From Octopus vulgaris (taxonomy: Eukaryota): DNA of 64,000 nt. The notes under the pieces were generated by a model. That model had not been told where the DNA came from. It saw nothing but the letters and a program-made list of their open reading frames with translations, and made no database searches. Below are positions 6,299 through 60,898 of the stretch, in pieces. The translations under genes were made by a program, and so were the position numbers. How positions within the stretch are numbered: position 1 is the stretch's first letter; each line of letters starts with the position of its first letter. Location: positions 45,260,001-45,324,000 of the forward strand of contig OX597817.1 in assembly GCA_951406725.2 (NCBI GenBank). The letters run 5' to 3'.

Positions 6299-6527
6299 AT
6301 AAAAATGGTAAGACAAGAAAAGAAAGAAACCTCGATACTATGTAAATAGAGGAATTTATCTGTAAAAGTAACGTGTGACAATTATTCGGTATCCATGATA
6401 AAACTTCGAGTTTCGGAGGCCGGGCCGGATAACTGAAGAGATGGCGGCGTAGATTTCCACCTCGACATCCGAAACGCGGAGTTTTATCATGGCTACCGAT
6501 TAATTGTCACATATTACTTTTCCAGGT
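6297..6527. mobile_element. Fold-back element between (TA)n tracts; same family as 59737-59998
   Basis: Arms about 6364-6420 and 6463-6521 are reverse complements; shared tail GTAAGA..AAAGAAAG..ACCTC..ATGTAAATAGAGGAA. Confidence 0.8.
6428..6488 (+). ncRNA. Minimal type-I hammerhead ribozyme motif
   Basis: GATAA-CTGAAGA-GATG..CATC(C)-GAAA-CGCGGAG-TT-TTATC: stem I GATAA/TTATC, canonical core, GUU site; stems II and III imperfect. Confidence 0.6.
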
Positions 6528-13129: not shown

Positions 13130-15403
13130 TATTTACTTCTCCGAAATGTATACCTTACGAGGACAAATGTACTTCAACCTAATATTGAATTCTAGCATTT
13201 ATTTCGAAGTTCAATATCCACTTAGTGAAATTCAAGACATGTTCAAGTATAATGATGCTAGTTCTTGCTTTGCAATCAATGTAGTTTGTATATCAAATTT
13301 TGGAAGAAACCTCTCAAAATTGTATAGAGTTGATAACGTCAGAATAATGAAGATGAAAATATGGATTTTTAAGACTATATGCATCTTCACTAGAGACGAC
13401 TCATTGGAAAATATTTGAAAACTCCTGACCCTTTCGAGGTTGCCGAAGCAATATATAAGTATTCGATCAAAATCGTTGACCCCAGGTTTTACTCTACTGT
13501 CTTAGAAATGGTTACGGTATTTTGTTTAATGTACTCCGAGATGCTATATCCTAATATATGAAAGCATTATGAGAGAGAGAACCTTTGATATATCATCTCT
13601 CAATAAGGAGCGAACTTGTACTAAACAAATACGAAACAACTTTCTCATGCATCTGTATTTCAGATGCGTAACGTTATAAGCCATAAGTAGAGGTTAATTC
13701 TAACACTTCAGATCATTCAGGCCTATTTCCATTTGTGAAATTTATTAACTGATTTTGGTGATGCATGTAATGACTTCCTTTAAACTATACCATTTAAGGA
13801 TTCTTCATAAAATATTTCTAACGACTGCGCTCATTAAACATACACAGTAACTCGAGGGAGCTCGGAAAAGTATAAAATATTGTCGGCACTGTAATATTCT
13901 GTTGTATAATCTGTTGTTATATTCCGTTGTATTACTCGTATTAATATCTTTGACTCATCTATCGTGCTATCACTGATAACTCCGCAACACAATGAGTTTG
14001 AGGCATTTGTCGACCTTGACGGTAACTCGAACCCTACTATAACACGTAAGTGACACTGACTCCAACTGAGAACTCGTACAACGACTCTACTGCTACTGAC
14101 TTGCTACAACGACTTTATAGTGACTGTATCATACCAGTTTATCACGTGGGAGGAGGAGTACCATTTTCACTACAACATCTCCCCTTTTGGTTTTTCAGGG
14201 GAAAGAAGTAATTTTATTTTAATTTTATCCACCCGCTCCCATTTTACGTTTGTTTTTCCAACTTAATATTTTTTTTATTATTGGCGTCTATTTGTAGGAA
14301 TTCTGTGTTCTTCCTTTTTCATCTATTTGTGCGCGTGGATTCAACCACCTGTAACGGCGTTGGTACCTGGAATGTGTCATGCAGATATTCCATAGATTCT
14401 TCTAATCTGGTTCATTTTCAATGAATCACTTCAATTGTTTTCTGCGTCTTTTTTCAATACCTTTTCTGTTTTTAATTCCGTACATCATTTTTCCTATGTA
14501 CTTTGTATGCTTTCCTTCTTCCCAGTATTGTTTTCCATTTTATACGACCTTATATACACATTATCAGCAATTTCGAAAAATTTTAGATTGTCTTTCCTGG
14601 TACTTTTTTTCTTTCGTCACCTGTTAACGGTTTATCAAAAACTGATTTTACCTTCCTCACGAACATCTGTTCCGCTGGTGAGCTGGTTCGGTGTCCCACT
14701 GTCTACCCTTAGGAATTGCTGCAGAGCGACTTCGTCTGTGACTTCCTAATTTGCTTTTCTCTAAGCTCTTTTAAAAGTGTCTGCAGAATGCTCTACCTGT
14801 TCATTTGATCTGGGATAGTAAGGTGCTATCGTTTTATATCCTACCGTGAAAATTTTGCAGAATTTTCTAAATTCATTGGACACAAATTGTGTTCCATTAT
14901 CCGATATAATTACACCTGAGATGCCAAATCTTGCGAATAATTCTTGCAAAAAATTTATTACAGTTTCGGCGGTTGGCCTTTTACACTTAACAATTTCCGG
15001 CCATTTTGTAAAACTGTCAACTACTACTAAGTAGTATTAATCATTTAATGGACCCTCAAAATCGATATATAGTATTGACTACGGATTTTTTACTTCTAGC
15101 CAAGGCTCTCATTTTTGAGTAGATAATTTTGCCGCCAGAGCGCATTCTTTGCAGCCTTTTTGCTACGTTTTCAACTTCCTTGTCCATAAGCACTTTCATT
15201 CTTGCTATTTCCGGGTGTCCAATATGGAATTCTTTCAACATTGTTTTTTGTAAAGTTTCAGGTATCACTTCCCTTTGGCAATGCATCAGTACACCGTCAC
15301 CTGTTGAATATATGTTTACATGTTGCTGTTTTTTTTCTTACCGAAGCTATTTTCGTTTTCTTTAGCTGATTACATAGTTTTTTTTGTTTCATTAATGAAA
15401 TTA

Positions 15404-33649: not shown

Positions 33650-35370
33650 AAGGGTGAAAAGGAACACACGAGTTGATATATATGAAAAAACAAGTCAAAA
33701 TAGAAAATGCTAATATAATTTTATAAAGAACATTTCAGTACCGGTTTCGGTCATTTTGAGACCTTTTCAACTGTAACGATTAAATAATTAAATTTAGAAA
33801 AATTAAAAGAAAAGTTTTTTTAAAGGAATATTTGTATAGTGTTCAAATATAAGTGGCATTCTGCCTTTCTCTGTCTCCCTTGTTTGCACTTGTGTGTTCG
33901 AGGCCGTTGTGAATTCTTGGTAGGGTAGAAGAAGAAGAAGGTTGATGAGGAGAGGGGTGGAAAATTTGGGAGTGCCTTGATGGTCGTATTTTGAATGGTC
34001 AGTGGCGGCTAGCAGTTGCAGTTCAATTCAGGAGAATATTTCTATTGAAAGGTTTGTTTATGGAATTTTCGTAGGTGTTATACTAAAAAGCATTAGTGAT
34101 AAAGTTAAGAGGTAGAAGGTGGAGAAGAAGAAGAAGAAGAAGAAAAAGAAGAAGAAGATGACGATGTTGATGATGATGATGAAGAAGAAGAAGAAGAAGA
34201 AGAAGAAGAAGAAGAAGAAGGAGAAAGAGAAGAAGAAGATGATGATGATGGTGATGATGATGACCACGATGATGATGATAATGATGATGATGAAGAAGAA
34301 GAGGAAGAAGAAGAAAAAAGAGAAGGGAGAATATGAATGGGTGAAAGTAGTGACGTGTTGTATGACCTGAAGTTGGCACCTTATGGATTATAGCTGTGAT
34401 TGGGGCTGATTTGTAATGGATTGTTTGGAATGTAATATTTGTGTGTGTATTTCTTTTATTCTAAAGTTGAGGTATATTAATCGTTTGTCGTAGACCCGTT
34501 AAGAAGTGGCCTGTATTTTGTAATAAAGAGAGTTTCTTTACTTATTCGTTGTCTCGAGGTTGTATCGTCCCTAAATTGGTAGAGGGGGAAATCCTGAAGC
34601 CTGGTGTTTTGTTGTTGGCGCAAGTAGCTATGTGTTGGCTGAAAGCTATTTTTCTGTTTTGGGGAATTTTTATCTGGGATCTGTGCAGGACCATTCTTTT
34701 ACGCAAACTATTTTTTGTTTGGCCTATGTACTGCTCTTGACACCCGGAGCAGGTTCGTGAGTATATTAGGTTCTCCGAAGCACATGTGAAGTTGCTTTTC
34801 ACTGTAAACCGTTGTCCCTGTTTGAAGGAGAACTCTGATCCCTCAATTAGATAATCGCATATCCTGCAATTGGGTCTTCCACATTTTTTTACTGTCGGCT
34901 TCTGTGTTGAAGAGTGTATTCGGGCTTGTGTTAGGAGACTTTTCATAGATTTAGGCTGTCTCTTGCTTTTTATGATCGTGTGTGTTTGGAGGATTGTGTT
35001 CATTCTGTGTTTTTTTTAGGAGGGGTATGTTGTGGAGGATGGTGCCGAAGGCTTCATTATTGAGAGGGTTTTGTGTGGAGATGTATGGTAAGGCTTTTGG
35101 TCGTAAGTTTTTCTTTGATTTGGGATGTCTCAGTTCCTTGATATTAAAATTTCTTGGAATTCTATGAGTTTTTCTATATTTTTATGCCAAAGAATGAAAC
35201 AGTCATCTAGATATCTCTTCCAGTTGTTTTCTATGTAGATGGAAAAAGGGCTGCCATATATTTCTAGAACCTTACGATACAGACCGATCTCTAGATATCC
35301 TATGACTAGGTTGGCAAAGGAGGGGGCCATTCGTGTGCCCTTTGCAATCCCCGATTTTTGTCGGTAGAAG

Positions 35371-45430: not shown

Positions 45431-45868
45431 TGTATTACCATGTGGATTCCTCATTCCATTACGATTACCCAGAAGGCGCGCATGGCAGAATTTTGGAGGG
45501 AAAATTTACGTTCCCAGTCGTTACTTGGTTTTAACATCTGCGCACTTCCCCCCCCACTATCTGATGTCGCTGGATCAGAAGTGAGGGCTGGTGGCATTTG
45601 ATAAAGCTAACGAATATAGCGCTGATGACGGAATTCAAACTCACCCTTTTTTTATATGTTTGTGATCCAGAAACACCGTGTTCGCTATTAACGGTAAGTG
45701 ACTGAATTCGTATATTTGCCACTCCGGTTTTGTGTATGTGAGCCACAAGGGCCTTCGTTTTTGGAATCTCTACTTATAGAAATGGAAAAAACGGTCTTTG
45801 ACTGCCATTTCTAATTCCTTCGGTATGAGGCGAAACAGCTTGCTGCTAGCCAACTTATTTTTCTTTAC

Positions 45869-46503: not shown

Positions 46504-47593
46504 TGTTGAACTTTTCTTAAAGTTTCTATGTTGATTTCTGTTGCACGTCTGATCGTGCAACAGAAATCAACATAGAAACTTTAAGAAAAGTTCAACACAA
46601 CAACACACCTTCCCCGAAAATACTACCTTACATATCTACATACAACCCCAGAAACAAAGAAGCCTTCACCATCATCACCCAGAATTTACCAATACTTCAT
46701 AAAAACCCAAAATTAAAGGAAATTCTAAACATACACCAAATCATTAAAAGCTACAAACAGCCTAAATCACTTAAAAAGATTCTCACAAAGGCAAAATTGT
46801 CTTCTGAAATTACGGAAGCAAAAGTAAAAAAAATGTGGTAGATCGAACTGTGCAACATGTCCTAACCTATTGGAAGGATCAGAATTCTTCTTTAAAGAGA
46901 GACAGAAATTCAAGATCAAATCTAACTTTACTTGTGCCTCTGAAAACATAATTTATGTCATTAAATGCTCGGGCTGCCACCAAGACTACGTGGGTTCCAC
47001 GGGACTATCACTCAGGCGTAGATGCACACTGCATCGACAACAGATTGCATTCCCAGAATATAGAATGATACCTTTTAGTGAGCACATTGAGAAATGCGCA
47101 AAGCAACTACTGCCACAATTTTTAATCTTCCCATTTTACCAATGTGCTTTCGGATCATCAACACGAATGAGACTGAACAAGGAAACATTCTTCATTGAAA
47201 AGTACAAACCCAGACTCAACCATCCGAACATACTAACACAGAGAAATTAACAAGGGAAAGGGAAAAAAATTTTTAAGCGATTATCTCCCTTACACCGGAA
47301 GAAATCACTCACTACCTCCCCTTATTTAGAAACTCCTGAAAATAAACACAACGATAACTCCATTCAATATAAACATAACGTCACAAGAAATTTGAAAAGC
47401 TACACGCGAAACCGGTAATTTCTTTAAAAATTTTAAAATTATGTCATTTTAAGGAAAGGAAAAAAATTTTCCAATATTCTCCAGACATTTTGACACAAAT
47501 ATATATATTTTTTAACATTTAAGCCTTCTGTCGTTTTTTCACTCTTTACTATTTTCTTATATATTCACCCACGTGCTTTACCAAACAAACTTT

Positions 47594-55268: not shown

Positions 55269-55436
55269 GGCGCAGGAGTGGCTGTGTGGTACGTAGCTTC
55301 CTTACCAACCACATGGTTCCGGGTTCAGTCCCACTGAATGGCACCTTAGGCAAGTGTCTTCTACTATAACCTCAGACCGACCAAAGCTTTGTGAGTGGAT
55401 TCGGTTGACGGAAACTGAAAGACGCCTGTCGTATAT
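55269..55436 (+). mobile_element. SINE family A, 5' half (split by PLE insertion)
   Basis: Head through GAAAGACGCCTGTCGTATAT. Confidence 0.9.
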
Positions 55437-55437
55437 G

Positions 55438-57576
55438 AATTTCTACACCAACCCAGCGTTAAGACTCATATGCCCTGCTAGTTCTGATATCGGGACCATC
55501 AGTAAGTACATTTTAGATAAATATATCCCTAGTTTAGTAAATAAGCTGAAGCTTAGCCTCTGGGCTAACTCCTCGCAGGTAGTGAAGTGGTTCTCTTCCA
55601 TCCCAAAGAAGAACCGTACTAGGTTTATTCAGTTTGATATCGCCAGCTTCTACCCCTCGCTTAACCCTAGTGTACTAAATAAGGCCCTTTGGCATGCTCA
55701 CAACAAGGCAGGCCTCACTAGAGAAGAAATTGATATTATTTTAGTTGCCAGAAAATCATTTATAAGGTTTGAAAATAAGTTGTGGATTCGTAAAGATACT
55801 CCCAATGAATTCGATGTGCCTATGGGTAGTTCGAATAGTGCGCAGATAGCCGATTTGGTCGGAATCTATATTCTCTACGAATTGTCCGACCAATTCCCGG
55901 ATATCGCGGGCGGCCTGTATCGGGACGATTGTCTGTTTTACCTGCAAAGGACCACGAACAGAATCGTACAGAAAACTAAGAATAGGTTAGCTAGGTTCTT
56001 TAATAGAATGGGCATGAATATAGTTTTTGATAATGAACTCACCAAGGCTAATTTCATAGACGTTACACTAACCCCCCATAGCGATTCATACTGCCCTTAC
56101 CATAAGCCTTCCACTAATTTGAAGTATGTCAGTGCCTTCTCCAATCATGCCAAAACCGTAACAGACAATTTGGTTAAAAACATCTCTCTAAGATTGTCTA
56201 ACTTGTCCGCTAGTGCCGACATTTTTATGCAGAAAGCGAAATTTTATAACGCCGCACTATCCAAAGCCGGTTATAGGCAGAAGGTAGTATATATTGATCC
56301 AGCCCTTCCGATGCCACCATTCGGTCATCAGGATACGGCCGTCTATAATAACATAAATAATTTAAGTAGTGACGGGAGCGCGGGGAGTGTTAGAGCAGGT
56401 ACTTCCGGATTTAATTTAGGGAACAAAGATAATTATCGGTCCGGGGGAGTTCACACTAAACCAAAACCCGTTATTCATCCTATAATCACCCACCCTAATG
56501 TTAGAGCTGGCTTCCCGACCCATCACATAAATAGGAATAAGTATATATGATTTGTAATTCCCTTTGGTAAGCAGATTAGAACTAACCTTCCCCTCCTGTT
56601 TTGACAAGCCATCGCCAGTAACTTCCCCAGAGATTCCAAATATTACTCCACGGTTAATTCGCATAAAGTTAGGATAGCTTTCTCCAACACAAAAAACGTT
56701 TCCCAGATAATCGCCTCCCATAATAATAGGCTGCTTATTAAAACCCTACCACCTTTGTCCGGAGGCGCAGCTCCGTCCGCTCCCAGTTTAACGCTCAGTA
56801 GGAATAATAATAGTAGTAATAATGATAAGAGAGCCAGTACAGTGACTGATAACCTCAGTACCAACCAGGGATTAAATACTAGATGTAGCGATAGAAGAAA
56901 TGGTGATGTCATTAACGTTAGTAATGGCAATAGTGAGGTGAGCGCAGCTCGGGTCATTAATGTAGAGAGTCCTAATAGCAACTCCAGCACCGTTTCCGGC
57001 AATAGCAGGCCCACGGATACTAGCATTTACAGCGCTCTCAATGATAGGGAAGACTCAAGGGTTAGTCCGTTAATAAATAGTGAATTTGAGGAATATAAAG
57101 TAGTAAGCGGCCGCAGTTCTCGCAATAAATATAGTAACAGTAACGCAGTTCTAATTTCAGAAGCTAATCCCAATAGAATAAGGTTCTTGTCGAATAACTC
57201 CAAGATCAGAAATGCCATTTACCAATGTAAGGTTTACACGGACTCAGATGTCTACTCGTATGTCGGGGCCTCATCGTCAAAATTGGCCTTGCGAATTTCC
57301 AACCATTTCGCAACTTTTCGCGATGTGAATAAATACAAAGCTACGGGACTTAGCAAGCTTATATGGGGTTTGAAGAACGCGAACTCAGGTTTCAGGCTGG
57401 AATGGTCGATTTTGTCGGTGGCCCTCCCATTTGATAGGGGCAGAAGGAAGTGCAATCTTTGTGTCTCTGAGCTTTTCCACATATTGTTCGCCAGAGACCG
57501 GTTGGTAAACGGACTTTTACAGTCGGCTTTTCGATGTCCCCATTGGCGGCGTTATACTTATCTTGCTTATAAATGA
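55438..57576 (+). pseudogene. PLE RT + GIY-YIG endonuclease reading frame with two in-frame TGA codons
   Basis: ORFs 55354-56550 and 56755-57576 are in the same frame; the gap reads I*FVIPFGKQIRTNLPLLF*QAIASNFP..KVRIAFS..IIASHN; TGA at 56548-56550 and 56602-56604. Confidence 0.88.
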
Positions 57577-58170
57577 TACCTAAGATAATTAGCACCAATA
57601 ATCCTTGGAAATAATTTTTGAAAGAGCTTTTTAAGAAATATATGAATAACCCTTGCAAGGGGAATTTACTCCCATTAGGCGAATGGTGGTTTGTTTTGGA
57701 AGCAAACGCAGGAATTTTATATACCCTTAGGATTCTTTGACGACGTTAATTTTTTGACAAGCAGGCCTAGACGAACACACGAACACAAAAAATATTTTCT
57801 GCCGCCTGACGAATTTTTCAGCAGTGACCATTATGGAGCGCCTTTTACCAACATACGGCCGCGCACACATAGGCCAGTACACACATACATGCTTCTAGGT
57901 AGTTTTTGTCTCGCCCCCAAAACATACACCCAGTATTCTTAAAATATTCAGAATTTTAGTTTTGGTCACACAGAACATCTCCACACCCATTGCTCTCACC
58001 TACTGGATTTGACCGCCGCCTGACCTGTAAATATCTTCAACGCACCCACCACCCGATTTCAACGTACATTGATAATCATTTCAGCCATGGGCTCTTAAAG
58101 AGCCTCCTCGTTCAAATTGCTTTGCTGCGCCTCTGTTCTGTTTTGTTCTGCCAACGGAATTCCTATTTTT

Positions 58171-58250
58171 TTCCTGAAGAGAAAGCCACAATATGGTATC
58201 CTTATTTAATCAGAATTTGGAAAATTGTGGCTTTTGAAACATGTGTAGAA
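58171..58250 (+). ncRNA. Hammerhead ribozyme motif in the Naiad-like 3' pLTR
   Basis: TTC-CTGAAGA-GAAAGCCACAAT..ATTGTGGCTTTT-GAAA-CATGTG-TA-GAA; 12-bp stem II, canonical core, short stem I. Confidence 0.7.
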
Positions 58251-58305
58251 TGCAATAAAAGGAATTCTGTTCAATCTTCGTTCAACTCCATTTCTTCAAT
58301 TCACT

Positions 58306-58309
<4 letters not shown>

Positions 58310-58388
<79 letters not shown>

Positions 58389-59208: not shown

Positions 59209-59702
59209 GGCTATAAAGATTTAAAAAAAATTTACTACCTGTGGCTTAGTATGTAGAAAAAATTAGTCAATAGACTATATATTATTCATATAAATACAGT
59301 GTACATTTAAACACTTAAGAGGTATTCGTCATCAGATTCCTTAACGCTAGAAGGAACAGCTAAAGTCCAAACAACTAATTAGGGATAAGAGCTCAAAGGG
59401 AATGAAAATTAAAAACATTTACCATATATCTCCTGGACCATGGTTCAGACTTTTTCAGCACATAATTGTCGCGTACTTATATGTTTAATCTAGGCGTACC
59501 TGTTGATAAAGACCTCTCCCAGCAAGTTATTTTATTTGCTAAAAAATCTCTGAAACCATGGTTCAGGAAATAGATGGTAAATGGTTTTATTTTTCATTCC
59601 CTTCGAGTTTTTATCCCTAACAGCTTTAATTGTTCCTTCTATCAGGAAAGGAAACCTATGGCGGATACCTCATATGTGTTTAAATGTACACTGTATTTAT
59701 AT
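59208..59702. mobile_element. Fold-back element with diverged arms
   Basis: Arms about 59288-59462 and 59536-59702; outer 27 bp perfectly complementary; (TA)n on both sides. Confidence 0.8.
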
Positions 59703-59736: not shown

Positions 59737-59996
59737 TTGGTAAAAACAGTAAGATAACAAAAGAAAGAAAGAGACCTCAATATCATGTAAATAGAGGAAA
59801 TTTATCTATAAAATAATGTTACATTACTCAATAGTCAAGATAAAACTCTGAGTTTCAGATGCCGAAGTGGAAATCCACAACACCATCTCTTCGGTTATCT
59901 GGCCAGATAACCGAAGAGATGGTGTTGTGGATTTCCACTTCGGCATCTGAAACTCAGAGTTTTATCTTGACTATTGAGTAATGTAACATATCATTT

Positions 59997-59998
<2 letters not shown>
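59737..59998. mobile_element. Fold-back element containing a perfect 174-bp palindrome and two opposed hammerhead motifs
   Basis: 59816-59989 is its own reverse complement (centre TGG|CCA at 59902/59903); GATAA-CCGAAGA..GAAA-CTCAGAG-TT-TTATC at 59906-59966(+) and 59839-59899(-). Confidence 0.9.
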
Positions 59999-60068
<70 letters not shown>

Positions 60069-60120: not shown

Positions 60121-60164
<44 letters not shown>

Positions 60165-60166
<2 letters not shown>

Positions 60167-60831
60167 CAATAATAAATCTTAGAGCGAGTTATAAATAGTA
60201 GCTGCAACACATCGTGACATATATTTGCCATTTAAATATGGCTAACCCCTAAGAGTGGATGCTACTGTAGTTTGCAACCCCAGGAGGACACCTCCTCCAG
60301 CTGGCTTTAGACACACTTTCTGAGCCCTATCAGTATTTGCAAAGGGAAGCCATCCTTCCCGTCTTCAACTTATGATACACACGGACTCGAGTTTCTGGGT
60401 ATTGACCCGTCATCGGCGTGTGACAATCACAGTTGTCGATGAAAAGTAGGTTCCCTTTGCAAATACTTATCTCTTTTTCAGTATCGTAAAGACACTGATA
60501 TCGAAAAGGTGTAATCAAGCAACAGTAAATCTTGATTACACCTTTTCGATATCAGTGTCTTTACGATACTAGAAAAGGGATAAGTATGTGCGAAGGGAAC
60601 CTACTTTTCATCGACAACTGTGATTGTCACACGCCGATGACGGGTCAAAACTCAGAAACTCGAGTCCGTGTGTATCATAAGTTGAAGACGGGAAGGATGG
60701 CTTCCGTTTGCAAATACTGATAGGACACAGAAAGTGTGTCTAATGCCAGCTGGAGGAGGTGTCCTCCTGGGGTTGCAAACTACAGTAGCATCCACCCTTA
60801 GGGGTTAGCCATATTTAAATGCAAATATATG

Positions 60832-60835
<4 letters not shown>
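60165..60835. mobile_element. Fold-back element with about 305-bp arms and opposed hammerhead motifs
   Basis: Arms 60214-60519 and 60531-60835, 11-nt loop, inner 40 bp perfect; mirrored ORFs 60330-60518(-) and 60532-60720(+). Confidence 0.9.
60628..60672 (+). ncRNA. Minimal type-I hammerhead motif (mirror copy at 60378-60422 on minus)
   Basis: CACACG-CCGATGA-(stem II; GGGT/ACCC in the minus copy)-GAAA-CTCGAG-TC-CGTGTG; palindromic stem III, GUC site, U4C core change. Confidence 0.7.

Positions 60836-60898
<63 letters not shown>

What the first reader, a model, noticed from the sequence alone, without database searches (positions are those of the whole stretch)
60165..60835. 620-bp hairpin with a minimal hammerhead (palindromic CUCGAG stem III) in each arm
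Stem I CACACG/CGTGTG, core CCGAUGA..GAAA and a GUC cleavage triplet are visible. Known: minimal PLE hammerheads with palindromic stem III cleave as dimers. Here the two copies are antisense to each other, so any read-through transcript would trap the ribozyme in about 300 bp of dsRNA, a possible self-silencing arrangement (inference). The U4C change is in both arms and also in the 59.9-kb family.
Basis: partly seen in the sequence, partly recalled or inferred. Interest (0 to 1): 0.7.

Follow-up and report, generated by a model that had tools for sequence, protein, structure and literature searches.

The report
Back-to-back retrozyme copies, insertion by-product
The hairpin is two back-to-back copies of a 353-letter, protein-free repeat that occurs in thousands of places in this genome and carries a hammerhead ribozyme shape; it is likely the ordinary footprint left when a Penelope-type jumping-gene enzyme pastes into both DNA strands, not a built-in silencing switch, and self-cutting is untested.

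Summary
The hairpin and both hammerhead motifs are real. They are two head-to-head copies of a 353-bp non-coding tandem-repeat unit (3,206 exact hits of one 21-mer), a non-LTR retrozyme inserted in (TA)n. Head-to-head pairs make up 67 of 155 sampled insertions, join at scattered positions, and 51 of 55 intact pairs carry the 44-bp tail on one arm only. This is the published footprint of Penelope-like elements. The arms have drifted 4% apart with no sign of upkeep, so the dsRNA trap is predicted to form but looks like a by-product. Stems I, II and III covary between subfamilies, and the motif is predicted to fold as a dimer. U4C marks a middle-aged subfamily: older ones have U4, and the youngest regained U4 plus the canonical G10.1-C11.1 pair, matches Rfam Hammerhead_1 and has about eight times more tandem multimers. 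That link is the one new, testable lead, but it is confounded by age. The 59.9-kb palindrome belongs to a different, protein-coding Penelope-like family with C4 throughout. This scan noted the same kind of thing earlier in other families of this genome.

The parts
60164..60530 (-). Left arm: one whole 353-bp unit (60519-60167) plus 11 nt of the preceding unit at its 5' end and 3 nt at its 3' end; the tailed arm
60164..60210 (-). Tail (unit positions 310-353 plus 3 nt), present on this arm only; inferred to lie between two reverse-transcription start sites
   Evidence: mechanism from PMC11167929
60531..60835 (+). Right arm: unit positions 1 to about 306-309, no tail
60520..60530 (.). 11-nt unpaired centre, a two-change variant of the last 11 nt of the unit; the arms meet at a short CAAG/CTTG inverted match
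60628..60672 (+). Type I hammerhead motif, right arm (C3 at 60634, C4 variant, predicted cut after 60666); two private changes in stem/loop II
60378..60422 (-). Type I hammerhead motif, left arm (C3 at 60416, C4 variant, predicted cut after 60384); identical to the common form of its subfamily
60328..60468 (-). Predicted 141-nt RNA rod (unit 52-192) with the hammerhead at its tip; the same rod lies at 60582-60722 on the + strand
   Evidence: z about -5 to -6 against 40 shuffles; self-inverted match
60551..60557 (+). ATCAGTG, the motif found about 58 nt upstream of U1 and U2 snRNA genes here; weak promoter lead, also part of a covarying hairpin
60121..60163 (.). (TA)n target, left flank
60836..60898 (.). 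(TA)n target, right flank

Best explanation
The hairpin is a head-to-head pair of copies of a 353-bp protein-free, hammerhead-bearing repeat (a non-LTR retrozyme), likely made in one insertion event in which a Penelope-type RT/endonuclease cut both strands of a (TA)n site and copied the same or a sister RNA outwards from two preferred start sites. Shown: copy number, tandem unit, the two 3' ends, one tail per pair, scattered junctions, shared variants in the arms, stem covariation. Inferred: the mobilising enzyme (Hydra-clade type, by target and ribozyme shape; not identified), the two-site priming, and that the ribozyme acts as a dimer in tandem transcripts of source copies to release unit-length or circular RNA. 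This copy is most likely dead: it has no tandem partner, its C4 core and C.A mismatch predict slow cutting, and a read-through transcript would fold arm on arm. Any dsRNA it yields would feed host silencing as a side effect.
For: Family: 3,206 exact hits of a 3' 21-mer, 379, 489 and 59 hits of three subfamily HHR patterns; head-to-tail arrays with a 352-353-bp period, up to 9 units; no partner ORF upstream of the unit in the loci inspected. Architecture: head-to-head in 36 of 85 and 31 of 70 insertions; one tailed plus one tail-less arm in 25 of 28 and 26 of 27 pairs with both ends intact, p 3e-12 against independent arms; 68 of 94 tail-less ends run into (TA)n. The same layout is drawn in PMC8557442 Fig. 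2, its File S2 lists Penelope-13_HM with the hammerhead on both strands, PMC4209133 reports opposite-strand motif pairs 100-700 bp apart, and PMC11167929 shows cleavage and extension of both strands and two RT start sites bounding the tail. Common source: arms share 9 non-majority variants, three of them rare, and only 3 of 73 other copies are as close. No upkeep: 13 differences in 308 nt, 6 hard mismatches, 4 G.U on + and 3 on -; rare alleles 67 of 9,842 in paired against 107 of 12,138 in unpaired columns, p 0.11. Ribozyme: both-side changes in stems I, II and III, dimer is the cofold minimum (-31.7 against 2 x -12.5 kcal/mol), youngest subfamily matches RF00163 at 32.2 bits, E 1.3e-6.
Against: No protein-coding partner sharing sequence with the unit was found among four Penelope-like families checked. 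Cleavage, circles and transcription are untested. 5' ends do not pile up at the cut site (2 of 89), so templates were uncut or circular, and the ribozyme's role is not shown. A fold-back of one cDNA at the 4-nt centre match would also give related arms. Rare-allele density is slightly lower in paired columns (odds ratio 0.77, not significant). No public contig bridged the centre of this copy, so the junction rests on the assembly.
Confidence: 0.85

Rival explanations
1. The inverted pair is a selected self-silencing or self-limiting arrangement: read-through RNA traps the ribozyme in dsRNA and makes small RNAs that hold the family down.
For: Full hairpin folds at -566 kcal/mol with stem I probability 0.0 on both strands. 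Head-to-head insertions are common (67 of 155), so the genome holds many potential dsRNA sources for this family.
Against: Junctions are scattered; only 24 of 67 pairs hold both ribozymes; arms decay independently with no strand bias in G.U pairs; the layout is generic for Penelope-like elements, including clades without a hammerhead (PMC8557442); the family kept amplifying after this copy inserted. No host exon was recognised in the window and transcription is not shown.
Confidence: 0.07
2. The hairpin arose by fold-back or template switch of a single cDNA (or a later local inverted duplication) at the short inverted match at the unit junction, not by priming on both strands.
For: Both arms start at the unit junction, joined at a CAAG/CTTG match around an 11-nt loop; arms share rare variants.
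Against: A fold-back copy has no reason to stop at unit position 309, the family's second preferred 3' end, as it does here and in 51 of 55 intact pairs; most other pairs have arms that start at unrelated positions.
Confidence: 0.1
3. The unit is only the terminal repeat of a still unseen protein-coding Penelope-like element, and the hammerhead is a passenger with no role in copying.
For: PMC11167929 found that ribozyme mutants do not affect insertion in vitro; a C4 core is in 100 of 100 listed copies of the very abundant 59.9-kb autonomous family; the C4 subfamily here spread widely; no pile-up of 5' ends at the cut site.
Against: What precedes unit position 1 is the end of another unit or flank, not an ORF, in the loci inspected; pure arrays of up to 9 units exist; all three stems covary and the youngest subfamily moved back to the canonical core.
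Confidence: 0.15

Closest known systems
Metazoan non-LTR retrozymes (PMC7229834; 10.64898/2026.07.22.740005)
   Same: Protein-free 150-450-bp tandem units with one type I hammerhead each, as monomers to multimers; mussel units are 350-390 bp; strongly self-paired RNA; proposed mobilisation by Penelope-like elements.
   Different: Circular RNA and cleavage were shown there and are untested here. No homologous protein-coding partner was found here. In the passages searched, PMC7229834 has no mention of octopus or of inverted copies.
Insertion units of endonuclease-bearing Penelope-like elements (PMC8557442 Fig. 2; Penelope-13_HM in File S1/S2; PMC4209133)
   Same: Partial tandems, an inverted 5'-truncated copy at the 5' end, a tail at one end only, (TA)n target, hammerhead on both strands.
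   Different: No RT/GIY-YIG ORF; the tail is 44-47 bp rather than 30-40 bp.
Hammerheads of Hydra-clade Penelope-like elements (PMC8557442 File S2)
   Same: Short stem II with an extra nucleotide on each side, near-palindromic stem III starting AC and ending GT, position 100-200 nt from the 3' end; PLE-X1_cBra has the same C and A flanking stem II.
   Different: All cores in that table have U4; the window's subfamily has C4. A natural U4C variant is reported in a viroid as slower in vitro but sufficient in vivo (PMC3088659).
Rfam RF00163 Hammerhead_1
   Same: The youngest subfamily aligns over all 45 model positions.
   Different: 32.2 bits is below the gathering score of 34; the window's copies give no match.

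Membership tests
Non-LTR retrozyme | Short tandem-repeat unit with a type I hammerhead in each unit | tested here: met
   352-353-bp arrays of 2-9 units; family level, the window copy itself has no tandem partner
Non-LTR retrozyme | No protein-coding capacity | tested here: met
   No ORF of 120 aa or more in the element; two short frames gave no Pfam match
Non-LTR retrozyme | Highly self-paired monomer RNA | tested here: met
   z -5.0 linear and -6.4 circular against 40 shuffles; prediction only
Non-LTR retrozyme | Expressed as linear and circular monomer RNA | tested here: inconclusive
   Only contigs from runs guessed to be RNA were available; they cannot show ends, strand or circles
Non-LTR retrozyme | Self-cleavage in vitro | not testable with these tools
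   Needs a transcription assay
Penelope-like insertion unit | Fixed 3' ends with an optional tail, variable 5' ends, partial tandems, inverted 5'-truncated copy | tested here: met
Penelope-like insertion unit | RT plus GIY-YIG ORF, own or in a homologous partner | tested here: not met
   No ORF in the unit; no sequence shared with four Penelope-like families checked; the search was not genome-wide
Type I hammerhead ribozyme | Core C3 U4 G5 A6 N7 G8 A9, G12 A13 A14, A15.1-U16.1, H17 | tested here: not met
   Window copies differ at one position (C4); all other core positions match; older and younger subfamilies have U4
Type I hammerhead ribozyme | Three stems supported by covariation | tested here: met
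   Both-side changes in each stem; few independent events, hand-picked rows
Type I hammerhead ribozyme | R10.1-Y11.1 closing pair of stem II | tested here: not met
   C.A in the window; unpaired in 49 of 51 distinct rows; G-C only in the youngest and A-U in one other subfamily

The most novel reading that the evidence does not exclude
This family records a natural experiment on what the Penelope-type hammerhead is for: the line went U4 to C4 and back to U4 while the first pair of stem II stepped from C.A through C.U and U.U to G-C, and the subfamily with the fully canonical ribozyme leaves about eight times more tandem multimers. Better cleavage would give more circular RNA, more rolling-circle copying and more self-renewing tandem source copies, so ribozyme strength would set how long the parasite's copies are.
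Probability: 0.3. Interest if true: 0.6.

Novelty: new member of a known kind. Interest (0 to 1): 0.3.

Why it matters
The hairpin itself is ordinary and should not be chased as a silencing device. The family around it is useful: the role of hammerheads in Penelope-like elements is stated to be unclear (PMC8557442) and was dispensable in the one in vitro system (PMC11167929). Here natural variants of one 45-nt motif, ordered in time and differing in multimer output, give a ready test set. The 51 of 55 one-tail rule is also a genomic count in favour of coordinated two-site priming.

Tried and rejected
Rfam scan of the window: no hammerhead among the listed matches, only repeat-driven miRNA noise. 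U4C as simple CpG decay of a C4 ancestor: rejected for most T4 copies, which carry many linked subfamily differences; a few T4 copies inside the C4 clade probably are decay. Search for a protein-coding parent: two widely spaced motif pairs (L061, L063) held unrelated neighbours; two endonuclease searches and the 59.9-kb family showed no shared terminal sequence; L173 looked like a parent but is a LINE-like fragment next to an old copy. Cleaved linear templates: no pile-up of 5' ends at the cut site (2 of 89). Circular template from arm lengths: both arm types cluster near one unit plus 0-40 nt, judged by eye and not tested, so only suggestive. snRNA-type promoter: ATCAGTG is present but occurs in 3.6% of 2,000 shuffles and is changed to ATCAGCG in the youngest subfamily with its hairpin kept; left open. 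Expression: no RNA holder listed on record; contigs of runs guessed to be RNA cover the unit but may be DNA or read-through. No contig bridged the hairpin centre in four runs, which proves nothing. Host gene: 110 short frames of the window plus one longer frame gave only mobile-element or sub-threshold Pfam matches. First alignment had the left arm mis-placed by 6 nt and was redone. The paper on dimer cleavage of Penelope-type hammerheads (PMC5785218) was not held; it may list C4 variants.

Full report
Observation. The inverted repeat is real: arms 60229-60519 and 60531-60821, 96% complementary around an 11-nt centre, extending to about 60214-60838 with one gap. The left arm is longer by a tail at 60164-60210. 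Both flanks are (TA)n. The genome is 2.8 Gb in 227 contigs; that it is an octopus is taken from earlier scan notes and from the by-eye likeness of a local protein to Hydra-1_Obim, not tested otherwise.

What it is. One arm retrieves a large family (2,582 candidates, 40 scored). In most of the best loci the arm's first base is preceded by the end of another copy, which defines a 353-bp head-to-tail unit. Exact 21-22-mers give 3,206 hits for the 3' part and 379, 489 and 59 for three hammerhead subfamilies, each with 0 hits for the reversed control. Arrays reach 9 units. The unit has no ORF and is predicted to fold strongly, with the hammerhead at the tip of a 141-nt rod. This fits the description of non-LTR retrozymes in PMC7229834 (part 2 of 6 and passages read) and 10.64898/2026.07.22.740005 (parts 1-3 of 5 read).

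Why it is a hairpin. Two samples were taken in genome order: loci of the first 100 hammerhead-pattern hits (85 insertions) and most loci of the first 100 3'-pattern hits (70 insertions). Head-to-head pairs were 36 of 85 and 31 of 70; both arms held the motif in 17 and 7. Outer 3' ends fall at unit position about 309 or about 352. Among pairs with both ends intact, one arm was tailed and the other not in 25 of 28 and 26 of 27; 8 and 4 pairs with other ends were left out. Independent arms would give about half (p 3e-12). Inner junctions are scattered. PMC8557442 (passages, supplement part 2 and two supplement searches read) draws this layout, with a tail at one end, and lists Penelope-13_HM with the motif on both strands. 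PMC4209133 (parts 1-2 of 4 read) reports opposite-strand pairs 100-700 bp apart. PMC11167929 (passages and part of the main text) shows a Penelope-type protein extending both target strands from two start sites that bound the tail. The window's arms share 9 non-majority variants, three rare, so they come from one source, and then differ at 13 of 308 sites. There is no strand bias in G.U pairs and no significant shortage of rare alleles in paired columns (p 0.11). The hairpin is therefore best read as an insertion by-product.

The ribozyme. A tree of 130 copies (bootstrap not fully settled, midpoint root, order supported by end-branch lengths) gives a succession: old U4 with C.A at the base of stem II, then C4 (the window), then U4 again with U.U, A-U or G-C. 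On 58 hand-picked rows (51 distinct; 28 found by a pattern that fixes core and stem II) 88.5% of cells pair against 85.2% in shuffles; stem I has a G-C/A-U swap (28 and 21 rows, none unpaired), stem II one (43 and 6), and the stem III palindrome one (C-G 20, U-A 17, U.G 11). These are few independent events, but each stem has one. Two left-arm motifs cofold as the double hammerhead; the right arm, with two private changes, does not. Only the youngest subfamily matches RF00163, just under the cut-off. PMC3088659 (passages) states that a viroid U4C variant is much slower in vitro but sufficient in vivo. The review PMC6765202 (passages) summarises dimer cleavage and low rates. The window's motif is thus predicted to be weak, and in this copy it lacks a tandem partner.

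The dsRNA trap. In the full hairpin stem I has probability 0.0 on both strands, against about 0.6 in a single arm. The physical claim holds if the locus is read through, which is not shown. Nothing indicates selection for it.

The lead worth keeping. Insertions with two or more motifs in tandem are 8 of 18 in the youngest subfamily against 2 of 45 in C4 and 1 of 43 in old U4, and 20 of 57 against 2 of 47 and 0 of 37 by pattern coordinates (p 8e-5; the two counts share loci, and exact patterns under-count older copies). Old U4 copies are also poor in multimers, so U4 alone does not explain it; the restored G10.1-C11.1 pair, youth, or a different partner enzyme could. 5' ends avoid no site in particular at the cut (2 of 89) but gather at unit 165-200, the 3' foot of the rod (27 of 89, interval chosen after looking), as expected if RT stalls at structure on uncut or circular RNA.

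The 59.9-kb family. Its motif has 3,904 exact hits, C4 in 100 of 100 listed. It is the 3' end of a 2.58-kb tandem element with a 717-aa ORF, 40% identical over 286 aa to another RT-like frame in the window; Pfam and NCBIfam gave no match for it, so its RT/GIY-YIG reading rests on visible motifs and likeness to Hydra-clade proteins. It shares no sequence with the 353-bp unit. C4 thus occurs in two unrelated, successful families.

Literature searches: six. None listed a paper on octopus retrozymes or on core changes across retrozyme subfamilies; PMC5785218 and the supplements of the 2026 preprint could not be seen and may bear on C4. Verdict: real, a new member of a known kind, in a known insertion layout; interest 0.3.

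Noticed in passing
window 59740-60005: Second head-to-head insertion with a tail on one arm: 3' ends of a 2.58-kb protein-coding Penelope-like family (Hydra-like), C4 core in 100 of 100 listed of 3,904 hits; intact 717-aa frames in L332.
   Followed up: yes
window 59290-59700: Third, more decayed inverted repeat (74% between arms) between (TA)n runs, with a CTGATGA core on the - strand near 59330; probably another Penelope-type end pair.
   Followed up: no
window 46828-47250 and 34542-35015: GIY-YIG-like frames; the first belongs to a very young family (150 of 150 scored hits at 99-100%) whose 3' end showed no hammerhead in my pattern scan but has the same optional tail.
   Followed up: partly
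window 55297-58310: Hydra-like element with an unusually long linker and a long 3' region; no hammerhead found by the pattern scan.
   Followed up: partly
window 6353-6520 and 45622-45682: Two further hammerhead shapes: an older U4 relative of the 59.9-kb family, also inverted, and one with C and A flanking a long stem II.
   Followed up: no
L062 2931-6050: Nine-unit array of the C4 subfamily; inner units differ by 0-9 changes, the first by 9-15, suggesting later expansion at the DNA level.
   Followed up: partly
   Followed up: partly
L208 3005-3342: A more distant relative (63-70%) of the unit with the same junction and ATCAGTG motif; likely a sister retrozyme family.
   Followed up: no
L255-L289, 90 nt upstream of U1 and U2: Shared upstream motif ATCAGT(G/C) about 58 nt before the start in 15 of 15 U1 and 17 of 20 U2 genes shown (one more has a one-letter change, two lack it).
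   Followed up: partly
window 14764-15036 (-): Integrase core domain fragment (Pfam rve, E 1.7e-14), probably from an LTR retrotransposon.
   Followed up: no
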